From: Rhina ancylostomus | Taxonomy: Eukaryota | NCBI GenBank assembly: GCA_030265395.1 | Contig: JARFYF010000052.1 | Location: 99,063,906-99,127,905, forward strand | DNA length: 64,000 nt | Direction: 5' to 3' | Shown: positions 5,890 to 37,900 of the stretch, piece by piece | Position numbering within the stretch: position 1 is the first letter of the stretch | Layout: each line of letters starts with the position of its first letter | Notes under the pieces: generated by a model | Seen by the model: the letters and a program-made list of their open reading frames with translations, nothing else | Database searches by the model: none | What the model was told of the DNA's origin: nothing | Program-made: the position numbers and the translations under genes

Positions 5890-6018
5890 CAAGTCACGGC
5901 AGATGCTGGCATCTGGAGCAACAGACAATCTCCTGGAGGAATTCAGCAAGTAAAGGCAGCACCAGTGGAAGGAAATGGACAGTCTACATTGTGGGTCAGG
6001 ACCCTTCAGTTGGACTGC
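5890..6018 (-). mobile_element. Penelope-type terminal repeat copy
   Basis: cagatgctggcatctggagcaac...ggaaatggacagtc...gacccttcagttggactg; shared with the copies at 17461, 23701, 41322 and 53722. Confidence 0.6.
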
Positions 6019-7469: not shown

Positions 7470-7810
7470 CCTCAGCCCATTTAATCCATACTGGTTCCCA
7501 GCAGAACAATTTCATTAGTCACATTCTCCTTATTTCCCTGCAACCTAGCAACTTATTTCACCTCACATGCCCTTAGGTTCTTCAGCTACTGCCCTACACC
7601 AGGAGTAATTTACAGTAGCTAATTAACCCACAAACATCTTTGGGATGTGATTGGAAACTTGAGAACACAAGGGAAACCCACATGATCATGGGGGGTGGCT
7701 GGGGGGGGGGATTGAGGAGGGAGTGCAAACTCCACACAGACAGCAGCACCCATGGTCAGGACTAAACCCAGCTCACTGCAACTGTGAGGTAGTAGCACAA
7801 ACTGTAGCAT
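7470..7810 (-). mobile_element. V-SINE-type SINE
   Basis: catctttgggatgtg...ggaaacccacatg...tgcaaactccacacagacagc. Confidence 0.7.
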
Positions 7811-7980
7811 TAATCCAAACATGAATTAGAAAATAAACAAATTATTTTCTAGTGTGATTGATGGTCGGTTGCTTAGAAAACATTAAAATATTGTCCAAAA
7901 CATTTCAAAATAAACTAGTTGGTCTCCATGCAGCCAGAAGAGTCAATTTAAATGTGTGGAGTTTACCCTAGGTTGTGCTC

Positions 7981-7997
7981 TAGCACCCTCTGGTGTT
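7981..7997 (-). promoter_or_regulatory. CTCF-like motif
   Basis: Minus strand reads ACACCAGAGGGTGCTA, close to the CTCF core CCACCAGAGGGCGC; motif match only. Confidence 0.35.
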
Positions 7998-8189
7998 CAT
8001 TTACAGCTTTTCCACTGGAGAAAGATGTACACACAGTGAGATAGAAACTTGATCAAAAAAGATTCAGAACTTTTCTTGTAGCTGCTGTGGTATTGAACTT
8101 CCACCACACTGGCATTAGAGTAAACTCCGTGCTAAAAGTAGAGCAAAATAAATTTGCTTTCAATATCTAAATATAAAAAAGGACCCTCA

Positions 8190-14507: not shown

Positions 14508-15865
14508 ATGCGGTCTGAGGTTCCCACCTACTTCAAAAGGGCATCAAACATACTAGTGCCCAAGAAGAGAAGGGTGAGCTGCCTCAATGACTATTGCCCT
14601 CATATCTGCTGTGATGGTGCTATGAAAGGTTGGTCATGGCTAGAATTAACTCCTGCTTGAGCAAGGACCTGGACCCACTACAATTTGCCTACCACCACAA
14701 CAGGTCTCCAGCGGACACAATCCCACTGGTTCTGCACTCAGCTCTGGAGCACCTAGTCGACAGCAAAACATACATCAGGCTGCTGTTTATCGATTACAGC
14801 CTAGCATTCAACACCATCAACCCCTTGGTACTAATCAACAAGCTTCAGACCCTGGGCCTCTGTACCTATCTCTGCAACAGGATCCTTGACTTCCTCTTCG
14901 GGAGACCACAGTGAGTGCGGAACGGTAATAACATCTCCTCTCCACTAACAATCAACACAGGTGCACCTCATGGATGTGTACTTAGCCCACTGCTCCACTC
15001 TCCTTACACTCATGACTGTGTGGCTAGGCACATCTCAAACACTATCTATAAGTTCACTGATGACACGACTGTTGTTGGCAGGATCTCAGATGGTGATGAG
15101 GAGGCATTCAGGAGTGAGATAGATTGGCTGGTGAATGGTGTCCCAACAACAACCTTGCACTCAACATCAGCAAGACCAAGGAATTTATTATGGACTTCAG
15201 GAAGGGGAAATTGGGAGAACACACACCAGTCCTCATTGAGGGGTCAGTGGTGGAAAGGGTGAGCAACTTCAAGTTCCTGAGTATCAACATCTCAGAGGAT
15301 CTATCTTGGACCCAACACATTGATGTAATCATGAAAAGGCATGCCAGCAGCTCTACTTCATTAGGGGTATGAGGAGATTTGATCTGTCACCAAAAAGTCT
15401 TGCAAATATCTATAGATGTACAGTGGAGAGCATTCTGACTGGTTGCATCACTGCCTGGTATGGAGGATCTGATGCACAGGATCGTAAGAGGCTGCAGAGG
15501 GTTGTAGACTCAGTCAGCTCCATCACGGGCACAACCCTCCCCACCATCGAGGACATTTTCAAGAGGCAGTGCCTCAAGAAGGCGGCATCCGTCACTAAGG
15601 ACCCTCACCATCTAGGACATGGTCTCTTTGCATTACTACCACTGGGGAGGAGGTAGAGGAGCCTGAAGATCCACACCCAACATTTCAGGAACAGCTTCTT
15701 CCCTTCTACCATCAGATTTCTTAACAGTCCATGAACACTACCTCATTTTTCCTCGTGTGCACTATTTATTAATTTTGTAACATAATTTTTATGCCTTGCA
15801 CTATACTGCTGCCGCAAAACAAGTTTTACGACATATGTCAATGATAATAAACCTGATTCTGATTA
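14508..15865 (+). mobile_element. Rex1/Babar-like LINE, 5'-truncated RT plus 3' end (disrupted)
   Basis: LDPLQFAY, LFIDYSLAFNTI, GAPHGCVLSPLL, KFTDDTTVVG, ESILTGCITAWYG; ends aataaacctgattctgatt; several stops and frameshifts. Confidence 0.9.
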
Positions 15866-17151
15866 TGAACTTGTGCTAAGTATTTAAACTTTGCACTAAA
15901 ATTGGTTTGCAAATAATCACAAATATAAATTGATAAATAAAAAGCATGAACAGGCAAAGTAATAAAGCATAACTGATTTTTTCCCACTTTTTATTAATAA
16001 ATATTCAGACCGGTTACCTTGTGCAGTTTTGTTAAACTCATCATAAACACCAACAAAATATATAGATAGTACTAATAATGTAGATTGAGGTTTAATGGCA
16101 ATACTCTCACTAGCATTATGAAATAAAGAATACCACTGAGGCATTTAGATTTTAGGACAAATGTCCAAAAGCTTGGTCAAAAGAAGATGCTTTAAGAAGC
16201 ATCCCAAAGGTGCTAAGAATTAGAGTGATGGACTGGATGGCTGCCAAGTTAGTGAAAAAGAAATCCATGACTTCCTTCTTTGTGTATTGGAGATAAGGAT
16301 GGAGAAGGGACTGGTTTAAAACGATTAATTGCATGAGAGAAAAGCTAGAGGTTTCTGCTCTGTTAAAAAAGGACGTTTTTNNNNNNNNNNNNNNNNNNNN
16401 NNNNNNNNNNNNNNNNNNNNNNNNNNNNNNNNNNNNNNNNNNNNNNNNNNNNNNNNNNNNNNNNNNNNNNNNNNNNNNNNTGAATGCTTCCTGTCCTTCA
16501 TTTACAGCTCAATTTAAAAACCATTGAAAATTTACATCATGAGAAAATCTACATACAATGTTTCATGGGTTTACATTAGTTGGTTTTTGAGTAAATTAAA
16601 TATTTGTCAAATTTTTAAAAAACTTTAAGTCGCTATGCAACTAAGAAAATGAGTGAAATTTGTTTCCCCAACCAAATAAATTTCACAGATGGGGAGTATG
16701 ACAAGTTTGGGCAAATTTAATCTAGAAACAGTGCAAAAGATCATGCAAAACATGACCATGGGTGATTTTGCCTTCAACTCATTTCTGTTTTAAAATTCCC
16801 CAGGCATTTGCACTGGTTTAATCATGTAGAGTGTGCTGATAGAATCAGTCAATCCTGTGAATAAGCATCATCACCAATTTTGATTATTTGTTTGCAATAC
16901 ATCTAAAGCATACCAACACAAACGGAGAGGGAAGTAAACCAGTTCTAGGAGCTCTGAGCCATTTTCAGTTATTTTTCTCCAAAAATTTAATTATTCATAA
17001 AATTTTGCACAAACATAATACAGTATATTAATAGGTCATAATTCACAGTACAAAACTGGTGGGGCAAAAGGTATGGACCAAGGGAATTCTATCCCAGTTC
17101 TGTCTGGGGTGAGAGAAGTACAGGAGATGTGGGAGATGGCTCAACCAACCA

Positions 17152-17153
<2 letters not shown>

Positions 17154-17214
<61 letters not shown>

Positions 17215-17227
17215 CGCGCGCGCATGT
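17154..17227. repeat. (GT)n microsatellite continuing into (GC)n
   Basis: Uninterrupted purine-pyrimidine alternation, read directly. Confidence 0.9.
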
Positions 17228-17229
17228 TA

Positions 17230-17600
17230 CCTGTTTCCTGAAAAAGGAGAACATCTTCACTGGGCCCCCTTACCCCACTGCTCCTATCTGCCCTCCCCAC
17301 TTCCCTTGTTTGGTTCCATGCTCACCCATCATCTACAGCCCTTTGTTGCCTTCACCTCTCCCCTGCTATAACGTTTTCCTCTTCCATCTGCCTATCACCC
17401 CTCCTCACCTGGATCCACCTATTTGCTCGCCTCTTTATACTGGCTATCTCCTGTTTACTCTTTCAGTCCAGATGAAGGGTCTCAACATGAACCAGTGACT
17501 GTCCATTTCCCTCTACAGACGCTGCCTGACCCAAGTTCCTCCAGAAATTTGTTTTTTTTTTGCTCCTGATTCCAGCATCTGCAGTCTCCTGTGTCTCCTT
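17230..17600 (+). mobile_element. Penelope-like element 3' tail and terminal repeat
   Basis: C-rich tail, then cagtccagatgaagggtctc...gctgcctgacc...ccagcatctgcagtctcctgtgtctcc; a related tail lies at ~17930-18280. Confidence 0.6.
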
Positions 17601-19668
17601 AAAATTATGTTTATCTGCCTGACTATTTCTGAGGTCTCTTAGTTGTTTCCTTTGTGTAGTTGAACAAGTAGCCTGTCCACTTGAAACGTTCAGGAGGCCG
17701 CAAAAATATGCAGTATACATTGGTTGATTGTAATGCCCAGATGCAGTTTGCAGATACAAAGGACAGCTTATATGGCCAATGTAGGCTTTTGGAGATTTAA
17801 TCCAAGATTACTTAAGGAATAGGAGTCTGACATTTAACTTTTAATGTTTTGGCAGTAGTAGAGTAAAACCTATCCAAAAACCCCACCTAAAACCAATGGA
17901 CCACTATACTGCATTAATGGCAACCTGCTTGCCCTCCGTCACCTTCTCTCTCTTCCTGGTCTACCCCTAATTAGCACCCCCCACCCTCAATTCCTTTTCT
18001 CTCCACCAGTGACTCCATCTGCCCATCATTGACACACTCCTCCCACTGTTCCCATCTGCACACCCTACTTGATACTTATTTGGTTCCATGCTCCACATTC
18101 CTTTCTTATTAGATTCCATCAGCTGTAGCCCTTTGCTGCCTCCACCTATTACCAGTCAGTCTCTGTTGCTATTCCCACACTTCCCTCCATCTGTCAATCA
18201 CCCCTCTTCACCTGGATCCATCTAATACTTGCCAGCTCTGGCACCACCACTTCCCCCCCACATCTTTATACTAGCTACCTTCAACAATTTGTTTTTTGCA
18301 ACATAGTTTTAAACTGGCAAAATGCAAATATAAGCCTGATGCAAGGAATTTCTTTGCACGTTGTGAAATTTTCAGTATGGTAGCAGAGGCAAAAAAAGCT
18401 TAAGAACTATACTTAGACGCTCAGATGGGTACAGGCATTTTTATCTGCATTGATGAGCTAAGAATTTTGCACCCTGAAAAGTACAGCCTCTTCAATAGAA
18501 ATATGGTGCGATAAATCCAATATAAAAGCAAACATCATTCTCTCAAGAACTCCTTATTTCTTGAAGAGGTGAGATTTTAATTATTTTAAAATGTGAAATA
18601 TTCATGATTAATTAACAGCAATTAAAATTAAGTGGATGGTATGCCACGAGATGTATTTGTTCATAATTGACGATACTAGAAGTAAAAGGCAGCTGAATAT
18701 TTTAAAATGTAGAACTTTTAAACAATGATTATTGCTGTATGTTGGTGTGTATAAAAGGCCTACTTATAAACAAATACAACAATGAACAGGAAATTTCATT
18801 GAATAAAATTCAACTTAAATTGTTTTAATAATAGGATAAAATACAATAGACATCTAAAACACATACATTTTTAAATTTTTATTTACTAAGTTTTCAAATT
18901 ATAAATACAAGATATAACTGTTCTGAAAAACTTAGGGGATTTAAACAAACTGTGCCAGATTTTCTCAAACAGGTGAGATTAATCATACTCATTATTTACA
19001 CAATGATGCAACAACCTCCAGTGAAGTTAAACACAGATATCCAAAGGTTGCCCCAAGAATTACGTTACTGTTACTAACATAAAAAAAAGCACCAAGCTGT
19101 AGGTCTTGCCAGTGCATGCATTGCATGTCATATTGCCTTACAGCAGATTCAAACTTGTCACGGATTTTCCGGAAATTCTGGCTAAATACCCTTTTTTTAA
19201 AGCAACGATCAGTAATGACTACCATTCAACCTCACCCATATTGGAAATGAACTATTATAAATATGAATCACATTATGTCAGGTGTTAAGAATTACTGAAA
19301 TTCAAAAAAATGAAAACTACAATAACACTTCCAATCTCTCAACCAACTTTTCCCTCTTCATTTTTCTTTCTGTATCTAATTGAATTTACCAACATTAATT
19401 TACACTGACTTCTTAATCCTTGTGCTAATTAGTTCATAAAATTTCAGTCTGATGTGTTAAGGAGGCACACTGTTGCTTGACCCGTTCACTCAGTTCCAGA
19501 GGTCCGGTTTCATTCACTGCACTATTTTCAGCTGGCACATTCAGTAGCTTGCAATACAAGAAACTAAAAATCTAAACATGAGGGGAAATCTAGCCAACAG
19601 CAAACAGCCCTGCAATACGGCTCATGAATTAACAGAAAGGAAAACGTATTTTGTATAAAATGACATTC

Positions 19669-19674
19669 TTTATT
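19669..19674 (-). terminator. Candidate polyadenylation signal (AATAAA) for TRMT44
   Basis: First AATAAA on the minus strand, ~55 nt after the stop; another lies at 18878-18883. Which one is used cannot be told from sequence. Confidence 0.35.
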
Positions 19675-19729
19675 CTTGATTGCTATATTTCATTCTAATT
19701 TCCCAAGAGAACAAACCATGGTCAATAAT

Positions 19730-19944
19730 TTACTTTCTTCTTGTAGTTCGAGGTCGCAGTTCCTCTGATCCATGTGCAAATGGGCACTTTTCTGCACTTC
19801 GAGGGCATCCATTGGGATGATTTACAAAGAACCAGCAAAGACGTGTCTTACATGTGTCTAATGGCATTTTCCTTGTACCTGATGTCTGCTTCCTGGTTTG
19901 CTCCTCCTTTGTCCAATCTCGAATCTGAACCTGGCCATGGACAA
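19730..19944 (-). CDS. TRMT44: TRMT44 last coding exon with C3H1 zinc finger ([28 protein letters not shown])
   Basis: Acceptor tgttag|; stop TAA at 19730-19732; matches the human C-terminus [13 protein letters not shown]...CPFAHG. Confidence 0.95.
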
Positions 19945-22900
19945 CTAACATATTGGAGAAAGAATAAAAGTATTTTACTACATTTTCAAGCATTTACCTA
20001 TATATTTTGTGTTCCAGATAATATGGTGAATACAGTCTTACATCGATACATCAAAGTTATGTGTGTTGGGTTCAAAAGAACTAAATATAACATATTTAAG
20101 AAACCAAGCAATTGAGATTGAAGGAACTTAACCAAAGTTATCACCGACACTAGGTCCCCCAGCATCTTTACCCAGGGAGTCTAGAGACTCCACTGGAACT
20201 GGTATTAACAGGAAGACAAAATTCTGGGCCATTGATAGAGAATAATCCATATTTATCTTAGTTATCGATTACTAAGATAAGAAAAAACATATGCAAATAA
20301 AAGCAACAAATAGAGTTGCAGAAGACTTGACATAGGGAAATCCAACTTTACGCAAATTCTCCCAGAATGCTCGAATCTCTTCACCAGGAAACAATACAGA
20401 GACTATCCATAGAGAAAAGTAATGCAGTCTCCGAACTCTTCTTCAGGTAAAGTCAAATGTTACAAACCCTCAGCCACCACTTAATAGTGCACACTTTCTT
20501 TTATTAAACTGCTAATAGTTTTCTTGCTGATTAGCAGATCAGCACCCACCTTCACTCCACCCAGGTTGCATTCAAACATTTGTCACAGTTCACTTGCTGG
20601 TAATAACACCTATCACCTACACTGACCCTCCCCAGTCTACTCTTTGCAAATCAGTTGCTTAGGTCTGTTGAAGCTAAAGATTTCACATTACTATTTAGGG
20701 AGAAAATGTTCATTTCTGACTTACGGAAAATTCAATTTACATAGAACATTACAGCACAGTACAGGCCCTTTGGCCCCCAATATTGTACTGACCTTTTAAC
20801 CTACTCTAAGATCCATCTAACCATTCCCTCCCACGTACTCCTCCATTTTTCTATCATCCATGTACCTAAGAGTTTCTTAAATGTCCCTAATGTACCTGCC
20901 TCTACCAGCACCCCAGCAGCACGTTCCATGCACCCAATCACTCTGTGTAAAAAAAAGAAAACCTACCTCTAATATCCCCCTTCCAATGACCTTAAAATTA
21001 TGCCCCCTCGTGTTAGCCATTTCTGCCCTAGGAAAAAGTCTCAGGCTGTCCACTCCATCAATGCCTCTTATCATCTTGTACACCTCTATGAGGTCACCTC
21101 TCATCCTCCTTCACTCCAGAGAGAAAAGACCTAGCTCACTCAACCTATCTTCATAAGACGTGCTCTCCAATCCAGGTAGCATCCTGGTAAATCTCCTCTG
21201 CACCCTATCTAAAGTTTCCACATCCTTCCTATAGTGAGGCAACCAGAACTGAACACAATATTCTTAAGTGTGGTCTAACCAGGGTTTTATAGAACTGCAA
21301 CATTACCTCGCGGCTTCTGAACTCAATTCCCCAACTAATGAAGGCCAACATGCCATATGCCTTCTTAACAACCCTATCAACTTGTGCAGCAACTCTGAGG
21401 GATCTATGGACTTGGACCCCAAGATCCCTCTGTTCCTTCACACTTAAGAATCCTGCCATTAACCCTGTATTCTGCATTCAAATTCGACCTTTCAAAGTGA
21501 ATCACTTCACACCTTTCAGGGTGGAACTCCATCTGCCCCTTCTCAGCCCAGCTTTGCATCCTTATCAATGTCCTGCTGTAACCCTCGACAACCTTCTACA
21601 CTATCCACCACACCACCAACCTTTGTATCATCAGCAAACTTACTAATCCACCCTACCACTTCCTCATCCTCATCCAAGTCATTTGTAAAAATTACAAAAA
21701 GCAGGCTTCCCAGAACAGATCCCTGCAGAACACCACTGGTCACCGACCTCCAGGTAGAATAGGTCCATCTACAACCACCCTCTGTCTTCTATGGACAGCC
21801 AGTTCCAAATCCACACAGCCAAGTTTCCCTGGTTCCCATGCCTCCCGACCTTCTGAATGAGCCTATCATGGGGAACCATATCAAACGCCTTAGTAAAGTC
21901 CATATGCACAATATCCATTGCCCTACCTTCAATGTGTTTTGTCACATCCTCAAAGAATACAGTGTAATCAATGTGTTTTGTCACAAACGTTTCACAGGAA
22001 TGGAATCGTTATTTAACCTGGGGACCCCTTGTAGAGAATTGCTGTTAGTGACTCGGAGGGGGGAAATGGGATTGTTCTGGGAGCTAGTGAAGATTCAATG
22101 GCATCCTTTTATTGCATATAAGATTCTGTAGAGGTTAGGAAGAGAATTAATAAAAGCTGCAAACCATACCTTCAAATACCTGACAATTATTTCTTAAGAG
22201 AGTCTTCAAACCACCACACTCATTTTTTAATTTCTGTAATGCACTGCTGCCTAGAAAAGCTGCTACATTCTTCAGTGGCAGGCTTCCTGCGGTAAAACAC
22301 ATTGGGGTAGAAATTGAGAGAATGCGTAAAAATTCATGACTTTATATGGTATACATCATGACTTTAAGTCACTGCAGTAAGTGAAGTATTGAAGTACAGT
22401 CATTGAAGGAATCTGGTGGCATTAATAATGGAAAGGACACAAAGAACTGCCCAGCTCTTCTTCAAACGGGAAGATGGGAATACATTTATTCAACTGAATA
22501 ATAAATATTGTTGTTTAGTATCTCATCCAAAAGACAGTACATCCAACAGTGCAGCACCTTGTACCACAAAATATACATCTCTGGAGTGGGACTTTTGTGA
22601 TAATCAAAATGCAATTAGCTTTCTCAGCTTGAGTAGGCTGCCAAATGAGCTGGCAAGATTCCATCCCAAAAAACTATTAACAGGAAACTGGGAAAGCCAG
22701 TTTAAGTTTGTTAAGCAGATAATNNNNNNNNNNNNNNNNNNNNNNNNNNNNNNNNNNNNNNNNNNNNNNNNNNNNNNNNNNNNNNNNNNNNNNNNNNNNN
22801 NNNNNNNNNNNNNNNNNNNNNNNTAGAAAGAAGTCTGGTCTGCAAAAGTAATATTGCTGTTACATTGGCTGTAGTTATTCAGATAGCCCAAAGAACAATA

Positions 22901-25900
22901 GCACCATCCACATTTAACATGGATTAACTAATGTCATTTTAATGCAGGTATGGAACAGCTCCTCTGGAACACATCTCATTGAGTAGACTGACTGTTCTGC
23001 GAAAGAGATACAGGTATCTCTTACATATTTGTACATTAAATATTAACTACCATTTAAATGCATATGAAAATTCCCTGATTCTGGACATTCTTCTGATTTA
23101 TTTAATCATTTCAATGTTTCTTCAGTTATTACCCATTCTTGTATTTACAGGAATGGTTTGGGACCTGTGAAGGAAGGAGAGTCACAGTACTCAGTGGTTC
23201 ATTGCACTGGATATATCAAGGCTTGGCCACCAGCAGGTAATTTAATTCAATCAGAAGTGTAATTTAGTTTTTTTTATTTAGCGTAATAGAGTCATACAAC
23301 ATGGAAATTGGCCCTTTGGCTCACTGAGTCCATGTCGACGATCGAACATCTACTACATAATCACATTTCATTTTTCCCACTTTCCTATCAACTCTCTCCA
23401 GATTCTATCACTTAGCTAAATATTAGGGGCAAATGACGGTGGCCAGTTAACCTATAGACCCACATGTCTTTGGTATGTGGGAGGAAACCAAAGCACCCTG
23501 GAGAAAACTCACACAGTTACAGAAAAAACAGGTGAACTCCACACAGACAGCACCCAAGCTCGGGGTTGAACCTGGGTCACTGGATCTGTGAGGTAGCAGC
23601 TTCACTAGCTGTGCAACTGTGTAATAACTTGCAAACTTTCTGCTCTGGGGCTTACTGAGAAGTTCTTGCACCCTCTCATGCTCAACTAACCACAGATACT
23701 GGAGACACAGGAGACTACAGATGCTGGAAGAAAACAGCAGGTCAGGCAGCATCCGTGAAGGAAAATGGACAGTCGATGTTTCAGGTCAAGGTCCTTCATT
23801 GGTCCAAGATGAAGGATCTCGACCCAAAACGTCAACTGTCCATTTCCCTCCATAGATGCAGCCTGACCTGCTGTGTTCCTCCAGCATCTTGTGTGTTGTA
23901 ACCAAAGATACTGGTTGTGGAAAATCTGCTGAGAAAGAAATCTGTCACGATTGTCTTTTTGCCCTTTTCTGTTGTTATTTTCTGTTTCTCTGTTACCTCA
24001 TGGGTTTCAACATTTACATTTCTCTCGGCAGCTGTTTGTGCACTGTTGTTGTGGAAATTGTGTAGGAACTAGAGGTGGGTCAATAGTTATATCACTTCCA
24101 AAGTTCCTGCCATCTGTCTCACCATTTGAAAACCATTCCTATAGTACACGAATGATAGATAAAATATTTGTATTTAACTGTTATATTTGTATATATCTAC
24201 AGTGAGAGAATGGAATAACAATAATGTTTAGAATTCCTAGTTAATCTGGAACTCTCTGTAGTTTAACTGATCACGTACTTTAACCTGCTCTCTGACATTG
24301 GCTGAGGGGAGTGTTATCGATCTCCCCATCATAGTTTCGACCTTGTGTGAATAACATGTCAGATTACTTCACCTTGTATTGATTATGAGCAGTTTTGCAT
24401 ACAGGATCATGATTTACTTTATGCTGAAGCAATCTGGAAAGTTATTTGAGGAAATATCAGAATAAATTACTTGCTGTGTTCAGAGACTCTGCATAAACGC
24501 CACACTCCTCATAGAATTGAGCCTGAGCAATTAATACTTTTTTTTTAGTGTCTACAAAAGGTTCCCCTAGTTTCACTCATCCTTGGCAGTGTTGGTCCCA
24601 GGCTAGCTAACACACTATTTTTGTTTTTTTTTACTTCTATATTGTTACTGATTCTAAGGAAAAAGGCACTTTGTGGCTCTCATGCTCTGGCCTTCAGTAC
24701 TTGTATTCTTAAGATATAACAATCTTCCAGCTTTCAGTTATGAGGTTTTATAAGTATCCTCGGTTCAGATCTAAGGGACTGCTAAACAAATGGAAATGCC
24801 ATCCTTAGAATGGGATGTTACTTATTACAGTGGTTGAGTTACTAGATGAGTAATCCAGAGACCTGGGCAAATTATGTGAAGATGTGACATTTATTGGAGC
24901 TTAGGAGGTTGGGGGGGGGGGGGTGGGAAACATACTGAGCTGTACAAAATACCATTTCACTCTTCTATAAAATCTGAGTTATTAATACAGTGAAAAGCTG
25001 ATGGCATGGGAGAAATCCCTGTGGCATCCTATTGGTAGCTGTATGTCAACCTGAACATTGTCTGTTTGTGGTACTATCTTTTTTCTGTCTATGAATCAAT
25101 AATAATCGTGCTAATATGTTACTGACAAAACTGTGAGCTCTTGTTTTATGTAACAACCTTCAAAGAAAGTATCTTATTAATGCTTTCTGAAAATTTGCAA
25201 TATTCTATCCACTGGCTCCCCTTTGTCCACTTTACTAATTACATCTTCAAAAAACTTCCATTGGATTTATTTAACACAATTTTCCCTTCATAAAACTGTC
25301 TAATCAAATTAGGCTGATCTTTGTGATGGAAGCCAGACCTGTCTCAGTTTTTCCCTCTGAGATACTGGAAAAATATTTAGAATTCAAGCAACAAGGGTAC
25401 TTTATTAAATAAACAGTCACTGGGTTAGGGAGAACTCATATTATCACTTTCTTCCACGGAGGCAAGCAGACTCTAATGTTCTGTATCACCATCTAACTGG
25501 TTAACAATGTTGCAATGAGAGAGAGAGGGAGCACTTGGTTACATGAATCAATTCTTAAAGTGGCACCAGCCAATACTATGTAATCCATATGTGGTACATT
25601 CTCCTTTTAATAATGAAAAAACAAAAGAAGGAAGAAAAAAATATGTTCAAAATAACCATGTAGCATCCATTGGCTCCACTTTAGCACAAAGCTGTCGAGG
25701 TACTTGGGTCGATGGACTATCCGTCCAGATCTAGTTCTCACTGTTTACAGTTCTCCCACTGCCTTTAGCTGTGCTGTGGTATCCACATGTTGCAGGGTTA
25801 GGGATGTACCCTGCAGTATCTCCACAAATGCTTTTGTCTTGGGTGTCTTCCTGAGGTGGAGCCTAATTTGTGGGTGCTATCCCCCACTGTGACGTGCAGT

Positions 25901-28900
25901 GTGGTGGATGTCGAGTCACTACTGCCTTCTGCTATGTTTGGTGTTGGTCTGATCTGAACTTCATTATAGCTGTCTCCAGTTCCAAATGGCAGTGGGCTTC
26001 TTAAACCTGTTGTAATAGCATGCTTTCTTCTTTTGCTTCCCCCTAGTTGTCTTTCTCTGCTTCTTTAAACTTATGACTCTAACAATGGGTATGGCGGTAA
26101 TGCAGCAGTTAAATTATAGGACCAGTAATCCAGATGCCTAGAGTTAAGAGAGATAGAATTTCAAACTCCACTATGGAAACTGTGTATTTTAAACATAATT
26201 AGTAATCTTGAATTTGGGAAACAACTGGTATTAATAATGGTGCCCACAAAAACCATCAGATTGTCATAATAACCCATCCAGTTCATTAATATCCTTTAGG
26301 AAAGGAAATGTGCCATCCTAATTATGTGCAACTCCAGGCCTACAGGGTTAACTGTTAAATTCCTTAGGAAATGGCTGTGCAAGCTACTCAGTTGTACTAT
26401 TACTGGTACATTCAAAGAGAGGAAAAGAAAACCAGATGGACCACTCAGCACTAACCCAGGCTCTGAATTTGGATATCACAGACCCTTCATCATGGCTGGA
26501 GCTAAATCCTGGAACTCCCGATACAACAGCTCTTTAGAGTACCTTCATCAGAAGGACTGCTGTGGTTCAAAGTGGCAGTTCACCACTACCCTCTCAAGGG
26601 CAATTAGGAATGGACAATAAATGCTGACCTTGCCAGTGATGCCCAGATCCAAACAAAATGACTGTGGCATGTGGCCAGTTGCAGGTCAAATCAAACTGGA
26701 GAAGATATTTGTGAGAGATTAACAAACTTTGAATGTCTGCCAAACATGTACAGACTAAGCAGAGCACACTGATCACAAGGTCAACTAGCACTTCGTGCTA
26801 ATTTAATGCCAGTTGTGACATTCTGGTCTTCAGTGTTCCTTTTATTTGCTAAAGATTTCCTGCAGAGCTATTTAGAGTGATTATCAACCTTTTTCAGATT
26901 AGGTTCTGATTTCTTTTGGTACAGTGTAGTTATACATCTTTGATGCTTTTTTTTAAGCTATTTCTAGCCTGAAAAGCCCACAGGAAATATTGTACCATGT
27001 CCATAGGAAGTAATGTGCTGACTTAAGGATGCTGCACAAACCATTTGCTTTTAGATATGGTTCCTCATGTGGTACAATATGGCTGGGTCATGCAGACCAG
27101 GTCAAAAAACTGAAAGACAGAAGTAGTCAAATGCAGAAGCAACTCCTTTGCCTACCAAGGCCGCACCAACATTTTACACTAATTTTACATTATTTTTACC
27201 ACATTCAGATCAACTTACACCAGATTCTACCACTCACCTGCACACTATTGGCAATTTACAGTGGCCAATTAACCTACCACACTTTTGGAATGTGGGAGAA
27301 AACTGGTACACCTGGAGTATACCTATGCAGTCACAGGGAAAAGTCCAAATTCTTCACAAACAGACCGGAAATCAGGATTGAATCTCCAGGTCATCTGAGC
27401 TGTGATGAAGCAGTTCTTCTAACTGAGGTACAGTGCTGCCAAGATTTTACGTAATTACTTGAATCTTAATTCTCTCACTGTCATGTTCGGATTTGAACAC
27501 AGGTCTCCACCTCAATAGACAAGGCCTCTGGATACCAGCATAGTAACTTAACCACTGTACTACTGTACCAGTGGAGAAGCAGTAGGATGAGAAAGAGGGA
27601 AGAGGTACTCAGCTCGAGGAAATATCCATCCAGAAGCTCATATCTACCCAGATGCTCAGGGAGCTTTTCTCTTACATCATCCACAGCAAGAACAACATAC
27701 TGTCTTTTTCCATTTGTTAGCATAATACCTGCATTGTCAACATGACCATGGCAATGAACTTGTGCATTAATCACAATCTCGCAGAAGCCAAGATATTAAA
27801 GATCATAGAAATTTATGGCATGGAAAGAAGGCCGAAAGAGAGCTGTTTCTGTAAATCCCACTTCTTAGCTCTTGATCTGTAGACTTGTAGTTCACAGCTC
27901 AAGTGCTTGTCCTGAGGGCTTTTTGTTACATTACCATTTCTGATGGTGAGCTCCAGATCCCTGCTCCTTACCCTACTGCACATTTTCCTCAAATCCCCTT
28001 TGATTCTATTTAAATTAAATCTAAGTTCATACATAATAACATTGTGGCCTAAGGAAATAAGTCCTCTTGGTTGCCCTGTTTAGGCCTCAAACTTCTATAA
28101 GTTTTAAATACACCTTCTCTCAATCTCCTTTGTTCCAAAAAAAACAACCCAAATCCAAGGGTTAGATGAAAGGGGTTGAAAAAAGTCAGATAGCTAAATG
28201 GCCTATTCTGGATTGTAAAATTGATGTAAATCAATCAAAGATTTGGAGGTTGGATATAATTTTTAAAATTATGAAGAGTTTAAAACAGTAGATTTGGAGA
28301 CCATTCGTGGCCAAGCTTAGTATATAGGTACGCAAGTAGAGAACAGCTGCCACTGATCAAATGGACAGGAATTAATTTTGTAAGAACTTGGAACTTACTT
28401 CCTTGGATCCTTGGATGCATTTAATGGGATGTTTAATGGTTATAATAAAGAGAGCAGCATGGAAGAGCTACTAAGAATTGAAGGAATGACCTGTTTTTGT
28501 AGTGTGGGTTATAAGTAAACTAAACCAAATTATTTTCTGAAACTTCACAAAAATGATCATTTAGCTGAACATATCTTGCTCCTTTCCACCCCTAATTATC
28601 ATTTCACATCTATAAAATAGATATCAGAATTATAATTTGTGTTAAACATTGATTATCTTCAAAAATTAAGAAATTACCTATCACTTTATAATCTGAAAAG
28701 TCTGTTGTCAAAATTGGAACTATTTCCCTGAAAATGAGTTAGTGGTGTCTTCAGATTAATAGCGTTTGTTCTTTTGCTCTTCGCACTTTTAGAGTCAGAA
28801 AAATTAGTCGCCATAACATGTTACCATCTTTTAAAAAAACTTATGTAGCCCATATGAGGAAATCGATATTTTAAATACTACTTTCAATTAAAAGTTCTTC

Positions 28901-31900
28901 CCATCTCAACCACACCTTTCAAACATAACCGACTACTTTTATGAGACAATATACTGGCCTTTCAGAAAGACAATTTCCAACTTCTACAGCAGCTACCACA
29001 ATGGCTGATGAATGAATTAAAGCAATAAAAAAAGAATTTCTGATATAACCAACATTGGAATCCCTGTCATTTCAACAAAATTTGTGCCCTTCAGCCAGAA
29101 AATCAAGAAGAATCAATGTAAATACAAAACAGAATGATATGGATAACTTATTGCTTTAGAACACAAAGTCCTACCTCCCTTGTTCCAATATCTTGTGTTG
29201 TCTTCATCATTATTGTTTTTACAGGGGTCCTGATTTGCCTTCAAAAGTGCTTTAGCTACTTGAAGCACAACACGATCAGTGAAATCCCTAGGCAAAGTAG
29301 CACAGTTCCTAATTTTTTGTGCTTTCTCTCTAGGTTGGAAACCAGCCAACCATACGCTGGATACAACTGAATCTACTTCAGCAGAGGTTCCTTGCACCAT
29401 AGAATGTTCAACACTGGAACAATGTGTCATATCATGAGCGAACAGTGAAGAAGTAATCGTTTCACTAAAATGATTAGTTTCTGTCCTCAGAGTAAAAGAA
29501 CATCTTTGTCTAATATACTGTGTTCGTTCTTTATCCAATCTTTCTTCATTAAACACAGGATATGTTCTTTGATTACCAATCAAGCAAACCTACAAGAACA
29601 AGAAAATGCAAATAAAGTAAATTTATCATAATATTACTGATTTTCCACCATGAAAGGCAGAATAAACAAGCTGCTTTTAAATCAATGGAGCCCAAAATGT
29701 TTAGAATAGAAATATTTATTCCTAGTGCAAATCTGTTGATTGCACCCATTTCAAGATTGTATAAAAAATGTAAAATGTTTAAGGCAATATATTCTTGCCT
29801 TAACATGTCATTGCAATGTATCCCAGCATATGGTGATTATCCATATACAAAAATCTGCCCTGTAGAACATATTGAACAACGTTAAGATGCNNNNNNNNNN
29901 CCATGAGGTTCAAAACGTCAGCACTGGCATCAAATTAGCATTTCATGCTGATTGACTTCACGATCAGTGTGCTCTGCTTAGTTTGCACACTTTTGGCAGA
30001 CATTCAAAGTGTGTTAATGGCCTCACAATTATCTTGCCTGATGTGATTTTCAATGTGTACATGCCGTTTTTTTTATTTTTACTTCATTGTTATGCTTTCA
30101 ACTGTCGAGGCCCTGAGCTCCAGAATTCTTTTCTTAAGCTTCTTCACTTCTCTAACTCTCCTTCCTCCCTTGTTACTCTTTAAAGACAACTTATTTGGTC
30201 AAGTCTTCCCTAAATCTTTTGTTACATCCTAAGAAGTGCCTTGGGATATTCCTGCTGTAATAAATAAATTATATAAATAGATGGTGCTGTGGTTGTAATG
30301 TGATTCTGTAAAGGCATGCTGGAAACTTTCATAGAACAAAGAATGCAACACTACTATTGACTGAAATTCAAGAATTCTGTGAATAATTCCAATGAAGGAA
30401 TACAGCACAAAACATTTTTACTGTTTTTACATCAAACACAAATACATGAAATTTACAAGGCAGCAATAATATTTCTCCATAAATAATTCAGCCTGTTCGA
30501 TAAATTTGTTTGGTATTTTCAGATTTTAATGCATTTGTAATAAAAAATTTGGATAACAAGAGCATTATAAAAGCACTGTATGGCATCTTAACAGTTAATT
30601 ACTGGAAGATTTGGATTATGAACACAAGAAACAAACATAAGCCACCTGGCCTCTCCTACCATTCAATATGATCATGGCTGATCTCCTCTTCTGCCCCAGT
30701 TCCGCATAGCCTTCAATTCCCAGATCTTTCAAAAATTTATCTACTTCCTCTTTAAATGCCTCCAGTGATATAGCTCTCACAACCCTCAAGAGATTCACCA
30801 CCCTCAGTAAGAAAGAAATTCCTATGCAGCTCAGTTTTAAATGATCACCCCCTTATCTTGTAACAAGGTACCCTCCATTGGAGACTCTCTCACTAGTGGA
30901 AACACTCAACATTTATCCTGCAATGCCCCTTTGAATCATATGTTTCTGATCACCCCTCATTCTTCGAGATTCCAAAGAGTACAGACCTAACATTTTTAGC
31001 CATCATGACATGCTTTGACTGTCAATATCTCCACCAACCGTATTCAAAGTTAGAAAGAGGGACGAGCCCATGAAAAAAATTAAGCACAATAAGAATTTTA
31101 AATATACCATTAGAAACTATTATTGCCAAGCAATGTCCTTTAAGCTATTCAAATATATTGGTATTCTACTATTGATTAAAAGTGTGATTAAAATCAGGCT
31201 TTTTTTTAAATTTCACAAATAATCCTAAAATATTTAACTATTGTTCCTGAAGAGCAAATAAAATTAATAAGAAACTCACCACAGATGTTTATAGTATTAA
31301 CGTAATTTTGAAATTTTGAAGTCAATATTGTAAAGTTCATGAAAAATCTATGATAAAAGACAAACACAGAATATATTTACTGCAGAAAAAAATCATTTTC
31401 ATACTTACCCGTTTTGTAGATGGAATTCGAAGGCAGTCTTCCTCAACTTTAAAACCACATACAGAGCCCACTTCTGTAATGAAATTCAGGTATGCCCTAT
31501 ACTGTGTGTTTGTGGTTTCCCTTCGACAGTATTTTCCATGGAAATCATAGAAGCAACAAGGCAAGACAAAGTAGCGACATGAATAAGATGACCTGAGGCG
31601 TAAAATTAAATAAATTCCTCTGAGCCTTTTACCTTTGCAAATGTTTTGAAATCGTATCATGTATACTACCAATTAAGCTCGTCACAACCAAATGATTGAA
31701 CTGTTCAGTACTTATTTGCAATTAAGCCTGTATCATTAACTTATTTTGTTACAACATGGATATTAAAGCATCAGAGCTGAAGCTTGGGTGATGAATCAAT
31801 ACACTTGCATCTGTGCTGGTAATCTAGTTCTGTAAAAATTTCTTCACATTGGAAAAATGAAGATTATTGATATAAAGAGAAAGATTGGAACTTTAAAAAT

Positions 31901-34900
31901 AACACTGCTTTTAGTACATCTTTTTAATTATTTGTTTAAAAAGATATACCAAATGCAGTCTTATTTGCAGTACAAGATACTGCAAATTGAACTTAATGTA
32001 TGCATATTTACTAATATGTACAGGGGAAGAAAAACCATAAAAGAAACCAACTTTATTGGGTTAATCAAAATTTTTGAAATAAAATATCTGATTACCTTGC
32101 TGCAACAACAGGAATCCATGGTGTAAGCTCATCTGAATGGTTGCCAATTAGCCAATCCACATCAGGAAAAAGGAAATCATCACTTGGAGTAATGGTACAT
32201 TCCTATTAAAATAGCAGTTTATTATATTTTGATCTTTTTTCAGCAACTTCAATTGTCTACCAAGTTTTACATTGTTATGTGATGATGGAGTACTGTCTGC
32301 TATCAAGGTGCAATTCTAACATCTGCTGGTTTTTCAAGATCAGGATCACTCAGTTTTGGGGACTACTCCAACCACTGATATTAAGCCACTAGGAATAGGT
32401 GAAATAGAAATTAGTTGCAGCAGACATAAAGCCTGAGAGTCGTTGGAGCTGCACTCATTCAGACAATTGGATAGTATTCTGTTACATTCTCAATTTGTAG
32501 ATGAGGAGATGGCTTCAGGACATCAAGTGGATCAGTTTCCACAAGATGCAGAGCTTCTGACCTACCCTTGCAACCACAAAATCTACGAGGTCACTCTAGG
32601 TGAGTTTCTGATCAGTGTTGACCCCCAGGATCTAGATAGTGGGGGATCTGGCAATAATAATGTCACTTAACATCCAGGTAGTTGAATAAAATCTCTCTTG
32701 TTAGAGATTGTCATTACCTGGCACGTTCATGGTACAAATGTATTTGGCATTTATCCACCCATGCCTAAATTTTATCTAGGTGTTCTCCATTAAAGTACGG
32801 ACAAGTTTGGCTGCTTAAGAGTTGCAAATGTGCTGTCATCAATGAACATCCCCATTTCTGGTACTGCTATGGAAAGTCATTGATTAAGCAGCTGAAGGTA
32901 GTTGGGCCTAGGATTCTGCCCTGAGGAAACCCTGCAGTGATATCCTGTGGCGAGGATGATTGACCTCCAACAACCATAACCATTTGCCTTTATGTGAGGT
33001 ATGACCCAATCATTGAAGTGTTTTCCCTTTGATGCCCAATTACTTTTTTTTAGAAAAGGTGTCTTGATGCTTCTTCTCTTATTTAAATATTGCTTTGATA
33101 TTAGAGGCAGTCACTCTCAACTCACCTCTGGGATTCAGCCCTTTGGTTCAAGTTTGATCTAATTGACTATGGACTGAAAGTTGGAAAGTGGGATTAACCT
33201 GAAGCTCAATTTTGCTTGGCATTGGCTCAATGGCCATTTATAAATTTCTATGATTCTATGAAATTTGAGGATAAGGAACAGGTGGTTCGGTTCATAATAA
33301 AGAGACGTGGCATAACTCTGTCAAATTTAAGTCATCACCATCATATGGATTGTAAACAGCCCACATTGCCTGTTTATCCTCCACAGATTGTTCCAGTGTT
33401 CAATTTTTGCTGACCACACCTACATTCTTTGCACCTGAGAATGATTTGAGTATTTGTGCAGTTTTACATTGTTGGGGTAACCAAGGACTGGATGAAAACT
33501 GCACATTTTACGTTGGACTTCCAGAATTACATAAAATCTACATCCCTTTCTACCATGACACAGAGATCTGTGCTTTGTAAATATTTATTGGAAAAGTTCT
33601 GAGGTCTGTGGTGACCTCTGTATTCCTGCTACTTCAAAGAAGAACTGTTTAGATACTTAAAGTATAATTTTTAAGGATTATCAACACAAAACCTAAAACA
33701 ACTATACTTACTTCATCATTTATCTGACTGAATTAGGCTTTAAGTTTCCACTTATTATTACAGTAGAAAATAACCACTATAGTAATGAATTTAATGTAGA
33801 AGCAGATTTAGCAGCTTTATGGGAAAGGAACATAGAGTAATCAATTTGAGTTTTACCTCAAGGTGCGTCTGTGGACCATACATGTCCCATATCTTCCGCT
33901 TTCTCACATCTATACCTCTGCCAGGGTGCTAAAAGGTGAAATGTGCAATTTTTTATGCAAACATTATTGCCACTAGCTTCTTTGCACAATTAGTTTTTTT
34001 GACGGCAACAATCAAAATCATTCAACCACATTTTATGCATTTCAGACTGCACAACTTTAAAATTTATGACAATGGTATTGCATAGATCAATACTTAGAGC
34101 TTAAAAGTGGCCATTCACCATAATATTTTCAGTCAGTGCAGACTATAAAGCAGATACAGGGAATTCCTATATCTCGTTAAATTTTCAAAACTATGTAGAT
34201 TGTAAAATTCAGTAAAAATTCTAGCCTTAAAGAATTTCAGTTCCATTATTTTTCTTATTAGTAGTCCCCTCAGTCAATGGCATTATACCACTTCCAATAA
34301 TATTCCAAGGCTCACTGGATGTTTGAGACTGGGGTCTTGCTTTAACTTCTCTCAGAAATTTATGAGGCAGTTCCTGTAGACTACTGTTATTCTGGCTGAC
34401 ATTTACTATTTCAGAAAATTCTTACCAGTAGTTTTCTAGTTCTATAGTATAACTTTCAAAGCTGTTACTCTATAGAACTTGTCCATTCACTTTCTTTCAA
34501 TAGGAAGGCATGTGCAAATAAATTGGCCCAGTTTCTTACAAATTTTTAACTAAAATAGTAAGATTAGACAAGTAGTTCTTTTAACTGAAAGAAGCTTGCA
34601 CATGACCTGGAAACATAAATCCTGAATGAGTAAATTTATACCCCAAAAGTTTTAAGCACACCGAAGTTACTAATTCTTATGTTTTATAACAATATTTAAA
34701 AACATTATTTTTGCTTGTCAAGATCACACTTTACTGTTACACTGATTGTTTTTTTTAAAACATACATAACTAAAAAAAGCTGTGGCTTAGCCAGCAGTTT
34801 TGTTTTCAGCTGTCATGGGAGAGTCTTGTTATACCCCTGCTTTCACATGATGACATTTACAAATACAAGGCAATACTATTGCACTCAACCTTACCAATGA

Positions 34901-37900
34901 GGATCAAACCAGCTTGGGAATGCAAGTTGACAATAGCAGATTCGAAAGCAAAAGCTCTTAAAGCTCACTGCTGAGAGGAAATTCAGGCTATTCAGTAGGC
35001 ATAGGAAGGTTACACTGTTCAACTCACTTGTGCAGTGAACTAGATAACAGAGTGAGATTTTCACACATCTTTCAGAAAAGCAGTGTAGCTTGAATTAAGG
35101 AATCCAGATTTTCACATTTAACTATGCTTCCAATTTGTGCATAATCAACAGTGAGCAGTGCTAGCCTACTCACCATCATTTTACAGCAAAATCCAACTCA
35201 TTATATTAATTTTCAGCTGTTGTACCTTTTTTTACTGCTCTCTCAATTTAACAAATCAAGTAGAGATACGTCTTATTAAATGTCCAGGCATCAAGGTGTA
35301 CACAGAAGTTTGTCAATGGACTACAAAATTAATAGCTTAACCCAACACTAAAATTTTCTTAATTGACAAAAATAAAAATAATTTATTCTGAAATGATCTG
35401 CTTACATCATTTTTATGTGAGGAATTTCAAGAACTATAGAATGATAGGATGTTCTATTGTGAGTCTTATATATAGCAGACATCTTTAAGTAACATTCTAT
35501 TACCAAGTATTATTAGCTCAAATTCATTTACCCCTTCATTAGTCAGGATATGAACCAGTAATCTATTTCCACATCCCAAATCTATAAAGGACTGTTTGTC
35601 AGTCAGGCCTTTTTCAACACGCTCATCTTCCCAAAGAATCTGAAACATGATAAAAGACTTTCATTTTTTGCAGGGAAGTGAACTATATTTTAATAGAAAT
35701 AAACCAAAATATTAATGCAACATGTATGCTGCAATCCTATTATATGAGACAGCAGAGAATGTCTTATCATCACTCAATATTGTTCATAAAGTGGCATTTT
35801 TCCATACCCATATTAATCAAATATACTTCAGGATTGGTAAATTAGAGTAACCTAATCATCTTTCAAGCCTGTTTTTCCACTTGATCATAGCACACGTGTA
35901 CCTCATCCACTTAATCATTATTACTCCAAATTCTTGGATGTCCTTAAAAAAATATAAGCTATCACCCAGTCTTGAAAATTTCAGTTGGCTCAGCACTCAC
36001 AGCCTTGAGTGAGTGTTCTTTTTAGGCAGAATTTTTTTCCTAATTTCACTCTTAAATGCAGCAGTTCAAATGTTATTAGGTTCTCTTTGTTCTGGGTTTC
36101 CTACTAGGAGGCACAAACCTTCTGCACCCATATTACTGAATTTATCATTTTAAACATTTTCAACTTTCATCAGACCATTTCTCAACCACCTAAACTTATT
36201 GCAAAATATATTAGTTTATGCAACTTGAGCAACAAACAATCTGCTGGAAGAACTCAGCAGGTCGAGCAGCATTTGTGGGAGGAAAGGAGTTTTCTACATT
36301 TTAGGTCGAAACCCTGTATCAGGATGGATGCAGGGTTTCAACCAACATACTGATTTTTTTTTTGAGGTTGTGCTGTCCAAAAGTGAATACACAATGTAAG
36401 ATAGGAATCTGACCAAGGCTAGCTATGAACAGAAGTATCACATATTCACTTCCATAATTTTATGTTTGCCCTGACAGTGCATTAATGATGCTATTTGAAA
36501 AGGTGTAGAACTGCAAAATGAAGCTTGTAGGATGTGAAATAACTTTAGTCTACGGTGACCCATATGACATTAACGCAGTCAGTTGTAGCACTAATGTCAC
36601 ATTATTTCATTTTTGATTGATGTCATAGGAAACTAAAATCAAGTCTGAGCTAATAGACATTTCCACATGGGCAAGTTGGGTTAATGTTTTTGTGCCAATG
36701 TTTTTCATGATTTTTCACTAAAAAAACAGGAAAATGTGCATTTGCTGATATATCTAAGAGGAAACTAGTATTCCTCCAATGCATTGCTCTAACTGGAGCA
36801 ATAAAAAGGTGAAATAAGCTGAGTTTATTGATACACTGAGAGTTGCACCTATGGGGAACAAAAAATATTTCATGAGAGCAGATCCTTTAACTTACAAACT
36901 TGTATGGTCAGCGGTATAAACATTTATCTGTTAAATTATGTTTAATTTTTCAGTGATTATTGTGTGAAATTTGTAAAGAAAAATCAATTTTGGAGCTTGT
37001 TTTAAATTCAGTGTCATGTGCTATTATTTTTATTAATATAGTTTACACTATTTCCTGACTAGATGCCAAGGCTAGACTTATCACAGCACAGGAACTACTT
37101 CATCCAAATAGGGAGGAATGACTGTGGCACCAACTATTAAGAAATATGGATTTTGAATTAAGTTCAGTAAAATGTTTTTTTACTGAAATGTTTTTTTGAA
37201 GAATTATTCTTTTTANNNNNNNNNNNNNNNNNNNNNNNNNNNNNNNNNNNNNNNNNNNNNNNNNNNNNNNNNNNNNNNNNNNNNNNNNNNNNNNNNNNNN
37301 NNNNNNNNNNNNNNNCAGTAAAATGTTTTTTTACTGAAATGTTTTTTTGAAGAATTATTCTTTTTAGCTTTTTAAAAAAATATTTTAATTACTTATAGAC
37401 CCAAAGCCTAACCACTGTGCAGGGCCTCACTCTTGAGGACCTGCCTCACATTGCAGGAAGTTGACACCAGTGCTGGTGGCTCAGCACTGTCAGGAAGTTC
37501 TGGTCCAATATTTCATTCACGTTAGTGTTCAATTTGGTCAACATAATTTTATGATTGGGAAACAGTATTTGACAAATCAACTTAGCTTTTTTGATAAAGT
37601 GAGTAATTGGTAAGATAGATAACGAGAGTCACTAGCATATTTGGAGTTTGAAAAGCCAAAGGATCACTCACAGCTATTTAGCATCACCATTACTAACTTG
37701 GGGATATTTTCATGTTTTCCCAACAATAGGCCATTTTGGAAAATGATCTGCAAAGATGAAATGACTACCAGTTAAATGACTACACAAAGTGGCAGATAGA
37801 ATATAATGATGAAATTGTGAAATTAGCCATGATAGCAGGAAGAATGGTAAATGTTTTGTTTTAAAGATGAAAGTCTAATAAATATTGGTACTCAGAGCAA

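What the first reader, a model, noticed from the sequence alone, without database searches (positions are those of the whole stretch)
22824..23240. Orphan two-exon ARNT2 (bHLH-PAS) genomic fragment nested antisense inside TRMT44 intron 9
Seen: two plus-strand exons (22948-23013, 66 nt; 23151-23236, 86 nt) with canonical AG/GT sites and a 137-nt intron. They splice in frame to (R)[51 protein letters not shown], and the ORF track shows only part of the first exon. Known: this is the end of the PAS-A domain of ARNT2 rather than ARNT1 (GPVKEGE.QY vs GSVKDGEPHF), and human ARNT2 is not linked to TRMT44/ACOX3. I found no other ARNT2 exon in the 64 kb. Because the intron is retained, this is a genomic copy, not a processed retrocopy. 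It starts right after a 100-N gap, but the same ungapped stretch (22824-29890) also holds TRMT44 exon 9. The normally conserved Cys (RCG) reads Tyr (TAT), hinting at drift. Inference: either a real transposed or duplicated gene fragment, in which case TRMT44 pre-mRNA would carry RNA antisense to ARNT2 mRNA (a possible trans-antisense or endo-siRNA source), or an assembly misjoin.
Basis: partly seen in the sequence, partly recalled or inferred. Interest (0 to 1): 0.8.

Follow-up and report, generated by a model that had tools for sequence, protein, structure and literature searches.

The report
Misplaced ARNT2 exons, likely assembly error
Two intact exons of the ARNT2 gene are missing from that gene's own gapped locus on another scaffold and sit inside a TRMT44 intron instead, most likely because the genome assembly joined them to the wrong place, so this is likely an ordinary assembly error and not new biology.

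Summary
The two exons are real and correctly described, but the nesting is most likely an assembly artefact (about 0.9).

They are the only copy of ARNT2 residues 239-288 found in this assembly. The ARNT2 gene lies on another scaffold (C61, 25.93-26.16 Mb). It lacks exactly these residues and has 10,386 N, including an 8,080-N gap, where they belong. Splice phases fit on both sides.

The peptide is 50/50 identical to 9 of 16 shark and ray ARNT2 entries. The supposedly drifted Tyr is normal there (13 of 16).

The pattern recurs. Another ARNT2 exon lies 17 Mb from its gene beside a 100-N gap, with a 5,047-N gap at home. The paralogue ARNT is spread over 11 contigs.

Strand skew weakly places the false junction near 26.0-27.3 kb. 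Read depth over the exons and reads bridging the junction remain untested, so a young duplicate collapsed by the assembler is not excluded (about 0.06).

The parts
22948..23013 (+). ARNT2 coding exon A (last base of codon 238, residues 239-259 and two bases of codon 260, P0121 numbering)
   Evidence: AG/GT ends; phase fits the C61 upstream exon; spliced peptide 50/50 identical to P0121
23014..23150 (+). 137-nt ARNT2 intron, GT..AG
   Evidence: sequence
23151..23236 (+). ARNT2 coding exon B (to residue 288 plus the first base of codon 289)
   Evidence: 26/28 to 7xi3_A; 28/28 to ray ARNT2; phase fits the C61 downstream exon
22724..22823 (.). 100-N assembly gap at the left end of the foreign piece; its flanks do not overlap
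22824..27250 (+). Widest bounds of the likely ARNT2-derived piece. Its right junction lies somewhere after 23236 and is not located exactly
   Evidence: from 27250 on, one contig of run X4 links the sequence to TRMT44 exon 9 (record 20); T-over-A skew is ARNT2-like up to about 26970 (weak)
23276..23902 (.). two dispersed repeats (23276-23621, 23693-23902); candidate junction sites
26102..27566 (.). repeat clusters (26102-26626, 27164-27566); the candidate junction sites that the skew favours
29173..29589 (-). TRMT44 exon 9 (host gene), in the same ungapped stretch
   Evidence: tblastn of P0135, 92.8%
22171..22287 (-). TRMT44 exon 10 (host gene), on the other side of the gap
   Evidence: tblastn of P0135, 97.4%

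Best explanation
These are the ordinary, intact ARNT2 exons for residues 239-288, absent from the gapped ARNT2 locus on scaffold C61 and likely misjoined by the assembler into TRMT44 intron 9 on C52. Shown: they are the only copy found in the assembly, the parent gene lacks exactly them, has large N gaps there, and its flanking exons fit them in phase. Inferred: a contig holding TRMT44 exon 9 was extended through a dispersed repeat into ARNT2 intron sequence. The contig was placed on C52 by its TRMT44 part, and the foreign end, having nothing to overlap, was left against a 100-N gap, while the ARNT2 locus kept a hole. In the animal the exons would be spliced into normal ARNT2 mRNA, encoding the end of the PAS-A region (domain label recalled), and TRMT44 pre-mRNA would carry no ARNT2 antisense.
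For: (1) DNA search with 22824-23270 gives 2 of 2 candidates: the window and an 80% match on C5105. Protein search with exon B gives the same 2. The C5105 exon belongs to the paralogue: 28/28 to ARNT-like P0179, 24/28 to ray ARNT2. (2) Full-length ARNT2 maps exon by exon to C61:25.93-26.16 Mb from residue 46 to 719, except 239-288 and about 385-434. (3) All 42.6 kb between the flanking exons was fetched and holds no trace of 239-288 at E 10; it has 8 N runs, 10,386 N in all, the largest 8,080 and 1,622. (4) The upstream exon ends after two bases of codon 238, exon A supplies the third; exon B ends after one base of codon 289, the downstream exon supplies two. (5) No decay: 50/50 identical to 9 of 16 shark and ray entries, 48-49/50 to the other 7. 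(6) Recurrence: the exon for about 385-434 lies at C61:9077313-9077474 (minus), 575 bases from a 100-N gap, single in the assembly, with a 5,047-N gap at home. The ARNT bHLH exon is on C69 while its neighbours are 14 kb apart on C73 with a gap of at least 4,476 N between them. (7) Weak: T-over-A skew of 22824-26985 is +0.07 to +0.12, reached (>= 0.08) by 17 of 58 ARNT2 intron windows and 0 of 13 other TRMT44 intron windows, and turns negative after that.
Against: No N separates the exons from TRMT44 exon 9, so the error must lie inside a contig, and I did not locate the junction. No overlap ties the piece to the edges of the C61 gaps. No read-level test of depth or bridging was obtained: one search was swamped by repeats and listed 32 of more than 506,000 pieces. 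TRMT44 itself has all 11 segments in order, so displacement is not universal here. The own-genome searches score only their best candidates, so a hidden copy cannot be wholly ruled out. The skew control is small and in-sample.
Confidence: 0.9

Rival explanations
1. A real, very young duplicate. The exons exist both at ARNT2 (hidden in the gap) and in TRMT44 intron 9; the assembler collapsed the two near-identical copies and kept only the TRMT44 one. TRMT44 pre-mRNA would then carry about 150 nt antisense to ARNT2 mRNA, in two pieces.
For: The stretch 22824-29890 is ungapped. A collapse would also leave a gap at the parent locus and an undecayed sequence.
Against: It needs the same coincidence for the second ARNT2 exon and for the ARNT bHLH exon. 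The left junction is an N gap, not sequence. No second, slightly different copy was found among contigs.
Confidence: 0.06
2. The exons really moved. ARNT2 is split over two chromosomes in this animal and is either broken or put together by trans-splicing.
For: Read literally, the assembly shows this: one copy, on another scaffold, intact and in phase.
Against: The home interval has kilobase gaps exactly there. It would need a second move for another exon. All other exons found are 92-100% identical to ray ARNT2 over the aligned exon (leaving aside one alignment that runs into an intron), which argues against a dead gene. Shark and ray databases hold full-length ARNT2 models.
Confidence: 0.02
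3. An old transposed or duplicated ARNT2 fragment that is decaying as a pseudogene.
For: Tyr in place of the Cys of other vertebrates.
Against: Tyr is in 13 of 16 shark and ray entries and the peptide is 50/50 identical to 9 of them. An old, diverged copy would not collapse with its parent, yet no parent copy is in the assembly.
Confidence: 0.02

Closest known systems
ARNT2 (bHLH-PAS transcription factor) of sharks and rays, e.g. P0121 and P0125
   Same: Identical peptide (50/50), intact splice sites, phases that fit the neighbouring exons of the C61 gene.
   Different: Only the place in the assembly: C52 instead of C61.
False chimeric gain, exons of one gene falsely inserted into another (Ko et al. 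2022, PMC9516828; passages read; example: three ALDH2 exons in ACAD10 beside assembly gaps)
   Same: Foreign exons inside an unrelated gene, next to an assembly gap.
   Different: There the exons are falsely duplicated; here only one copy was found, so it is a misplacement with a false loss at the parent gene. They also lie antisense to the host.
Mis-joins, including chimeric joins, of short-read assemblies (Rhie et al. 2021, PMC8081667; passages read: roughly 5,000-8,000 in short-read hummingbird assemblies) and erroneous sequence flanking gaps (Korlach et al. 2017, PMC5632298; passages read)
   Same: A gap-rich assembly (10 N runs in this 64 kb; 65,984 contigs), repeats at the candidate junctions, wrong sequence beside a gap.
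   Different: Those papers confirmed their errors with long reads; here that confirmation is missing. That this assembly was built from short or linked reads is my inference from its gaps.
Intron-containing duplicated gene fragments (segmental or transposon-borne; recalled, from no call)
   Same: Exons with their intron at an unlinked site.
   Different: Such fragments leave the parent intact and have two sequenced junctions; neither is seen here.

Membership tests
ARNT2 orthologue exons | Closer to ARNT2 than to ARNT | tested here: met
   28/28 to 4 ray ARNT2 against 24-26/28 to 6 ARNT-like proteins; PDB best hit is ARNT2
ARNT2 orthologue exons | Open frame, canonical splice sites, phases that fit the flanking exons of the gene | tested here: met
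Assembly misjoin (misplaced exons) | Parent locus lacks exactly this sequence and is gapped there | tested here: met
   residues 239-288 absent, 10,386 N in the interval
Assembly misjoin (misplaced exons) | Piece abuts an assembly gap and has repeats at its other end | tested here: met
   gap 124 bases before exon A; repeats from 23276 on
Assembly misjoin (misplaced exons) | Same error type elsewhere in the assembly | tested here: met
   second ARNT2 exon; ARNT on 11 contigs; TRMT44, the one other gene mapped in full, is intact
Assembly misjoin (misplaced exons) | Single-copy depth and no read across the junction | tested here: inconclusive
   one search was dominated by repeats; no listed piece covers the exons; only contigs, no raw reads
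Real duplicated gene fragment | Parent keeps its own copy (two copies in the genome) | tested here: inconclusive
   one copy found, none in the sequenced part of the home interval, but the gaps could hide one
Real duplicated gene fragment | Both junctions are sequenced | tested here: not met
   the left end is a 100-N gap without flank overlap
Decaying pseudogene fragment | Divergence or disruption relative to orthologues | tested here: not met
   50/50 identity to 9 of 16 entries; Tyr in 13 of 16
Processed retrocopy | Intron lost | tested here: not met
   137-nt intron present
False duplication (Ko et al. 2022) | Sequence present twice in the assembly | tested here: not met
Trans-antisense or endo-siRNA source | Antisense transcript or small RNAs from the piece | not testable with these tools
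   needs stranded or small-RNA reads of this species

The most novel reading that the evidence does not exclude
The nesting is real: a very young genomic duplicate of two ARNT2 exons sits antisense in TRMT44 intron 9, collapsed with its parent by the assembler, so every TRMT44 pre-mRNA carries RNA complementary to ARNT2 mRNA. A bolder form, ARNT2 split over two chromosomes and trans-spliced, I put near 0.01; it would deserve about 0.9.
Probability: 0.06. Interest if true: 0.45.

Novelty: not a real feature. Interest (0 to 1): 0.07.

Why it matters
As biology it most likely does not matter. As a warning it does: in this assembly ARNT2 would be annotated without three exons and ARNT in pieces, and other 'orphan exon' or 'nested fragment' findings from the same genome should be checked against the parent locus before they are believed. 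If the nesting were real, it would be a newborn antisense copy of part of a conserved transcription-factor gene inside a tRNA-methyltransferase gene, directly testable by PCR and small-RNA sequencing.

Tried and rejected
Drift at the Tyr: rejected.
C5105 as the parent ARNT2 exon: rejected, it is the ARNT paralogue (the PDB search alone was nearly a tie, 50.4 against 49 bits).
First DNA search with 22824-23800: swamped by a repeat. Pfam PAS search of the genome: 3 hits, not specific.
Overlap between the piece and the C61 gap edges: only repeat matches, at most 90% alike, and two short exact 18-mer runs inside repeats. Overlap of the left flank with anything downstream in the intron: none above chance. 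A second copy of 23900-26540: none among 40 of 265 candidates scored.
Sequencing runs: 14 listed, no RNA holder listed. Contigs of 4 of the 14 runs were laid on 16481-36400 at 85% likeness: bins were dominated by repeats and give no copy number. One hint there is inconclusive: X6 record 26 fits 21902-22590 and has 893 letters that were not listed as laid; by my reading of the record coordinates they lie on the gap side, but the table is heavily cut and a lineage-specific insertion would look the same.
Host gene of the second displaced exon: 0 of 74 open frames had a Pfam match. Other genes in the window: 3 of 73 frames had weak Pfam matches, all under the cut-off; I did not verify ACOX3.
Papers: 'ARNT2' with 'TRMT44' gives 2 papers, each naming both once, seen only as search listings; a shark/ray search listed 10 of 490 papers, none with ARNT2. 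No supplements were read. Earlier scan notes on this genome: none.

Full report
Observation. Exon B is 26/28 identical to the solved ARNT2 chain 7xi3_A, E 2.1e-14. The 100-N gap ends at 22823, 124 bases before exon A, and the sequence runs without N to 29890. TRMT44 aligns as 11 minus-strand segments in order, with exon 9 at 29589-29173 and exon 10 at 22287-22171, so the exons lie antisense in intron 9. The closest proteins come from rays.

No decay. The 50-residue peptide is identical to 9 of 16 shark and ray ARNT2 entries and 48-49/50 to the other 7; these entries include isoforms of one species. The Tyr taken as drift is in 13 of the 16, and Cys is in the other 3 and in 7 of 7 other vertebrate entries checked.

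Copy number in the assembly. The window is G000:C52:99063906-99127905. A DNA search with 22824-23270 and a protein search with exon B each return two places: the window and C5105. The C5105 exon is 28/28 identical to an ARNT-like ray protein and 24/28 to ray ARNT2, so it is the paralogue. The window holds the only copy of these ARNT2 exons that was found. These searches score only their best candidates, so this is a strong indication and not a proof.

The parent gene. Full-length ARNT2 (P0007) maps exon by exon to C61:25.93-26.16 Mb, plus strand, from residue 46 to 719, with two holes; residues 1-45 were not found. The first hole is residues 239-288. I fetched the whole 42.6-kb interval between the flanking exons. 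It has no match to these residues at E 10 and holds 8 N runs, 10,386 N in all, among them 8,080 N at 25996734-26004813 and 1,622 N at 25993163. The upstream exon stops after two bases of codon 238 and exon A supplies the third; exon B stops after one base of codon 289 and the downstream exon supplies the other two. The window's exons are the missing piece.

Recurrence. The second hole, residues about 385-434, is filled by an exon at C61:9077313-9077474, minus strand, 17 Mb away and 575 bases from a 100-N gap on its upstream side, as in the window. The home interval has a 5,047-N gap, and the exon was found once. The paralogue ARNT has matches on C73, C69, C66, C63 and seven high-numbered contigs; its bHLH exon is on C69 while the exons before and after it are 14 kb apart on C73, with a gap of at least 4,476 N between them. 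Against a general failure, TRMT44 is complete and in order.

The junction. It must lie inside the ungapped stretch, after 23236. One contig of run X4 covers 27250-29767 and 29806-30631, which ties the sequence from 27250 on to TRMT44 exon 9 in another organism (record 20). Repeats lie at 23276-23621, 23693-23902, 26102-26626 and 27164-27566. With repeats masked, T-over-A skew is +0.041 in ARNT2 introns and -0.046 in the other TRMT44 introns. In intron 9 it is +0.07 to +0.12 up to about 26985 and negative after; 17 of 58 ARNT2 windows and 0 of 13 TRMT44 windows reach 0.08, and the cumulative score peaks at 26970 (16.9, against at most 8.3 in 20 overlapping control stretches; range within 2 units 26034-28790). 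The control is small and was used to build the score, so this is a hint. Together the two lines point to 26.0-27.3 kb, making the foreign piece about 3-4.5 kb, which would fit the 8,080-N gap. No overlap with the C61 gap edges was found.

Mechanism. Shown: one copy, exact complementarity with the gapped parent, phase fit, no decay, recurrence. Inferred: a contig was extended through a repeat from TRMT44 intron into ARNT2 intron, was placed on C52 by its TRMT44 part, and left its foreign end against a gap. Two other 100-N gaps in the window have flanks that overlap by 51 and 30 bases, while this one and the remaining gaps but one (9 bases) have none; that is compatible but not diagnostic.

What stays open. 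laid contigs of 4 of 14 listed runs, was dominated by repeats and showed 32 of more than 506,000 pieces, none over the exons. Depth and bridging are therefore untested, and a very young duplicate collapsed with its parent remains possible (0.06). It would need the same accident for two further exons.

Known kinds. The closest described error is the false chimeric gain of Ko et al. 2022 (PMC9516828, passages), though that involves a duplicated copy. Rhie et al. [quoted passage not shown] 2017 report erroneous sequence flanking gaps (PMC5632298, passages). A search for ARNT2 with TRMT44 listed 2 papers with one mention of each (listing only); the library lacks most subscription papers.

Verdict. 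Observation confirmed; nesting most likely an artefact (0.9); novelty: not a real feature; interest 0.07.

Noticed in passing
G000:C61:9077313-9077474 (L023:4813-4974, minus): A second ARNT2 exon (residues about 385-434) lies 17 Mb from its gene, beside a 100-N gap; the home interval has a 5,047-N gap. No host gene was identified.
   Followed up: yes
G000:C73:2549387-2563896, C69:12451064-12451285, C66:4758497-4762058, C63:10218784-10218876 and seven high-numbered contigs: The paralogue ARNT is spread over 11 contigs; its bHLH exon is on a different scaffold from its two neighbours.
   Followed up: partly
window 37165-37366 and 63002-63161: Two 100-N gaps have exact 51-bp and 30-bp repeats on both flanks, so they are probably false gaps between overlapping contigs.
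   Followed up: partly
ARNT2 residue 239 (P0121 numbering): Tyr in the ray and catshark entries, Cys in the zebra shark and bamboo shark entries, the chimaera and other vertebrates checked; a lineage pattern I did not study.
   Followed up: no
window 14615-15653 (+): Weak reverse-transcriptase and ALKBH8_N Pfam matches under the cut-off, probably a decayed LINE-type element.
   Followed up: no
L013-L021 and L029 (C61 ARNT2 introns): All 10 pieces show a T+G excess of 0.034-0.057 on the sense strand, as expected of a transcribed gene (expectation recalled).
   Followed up: partly
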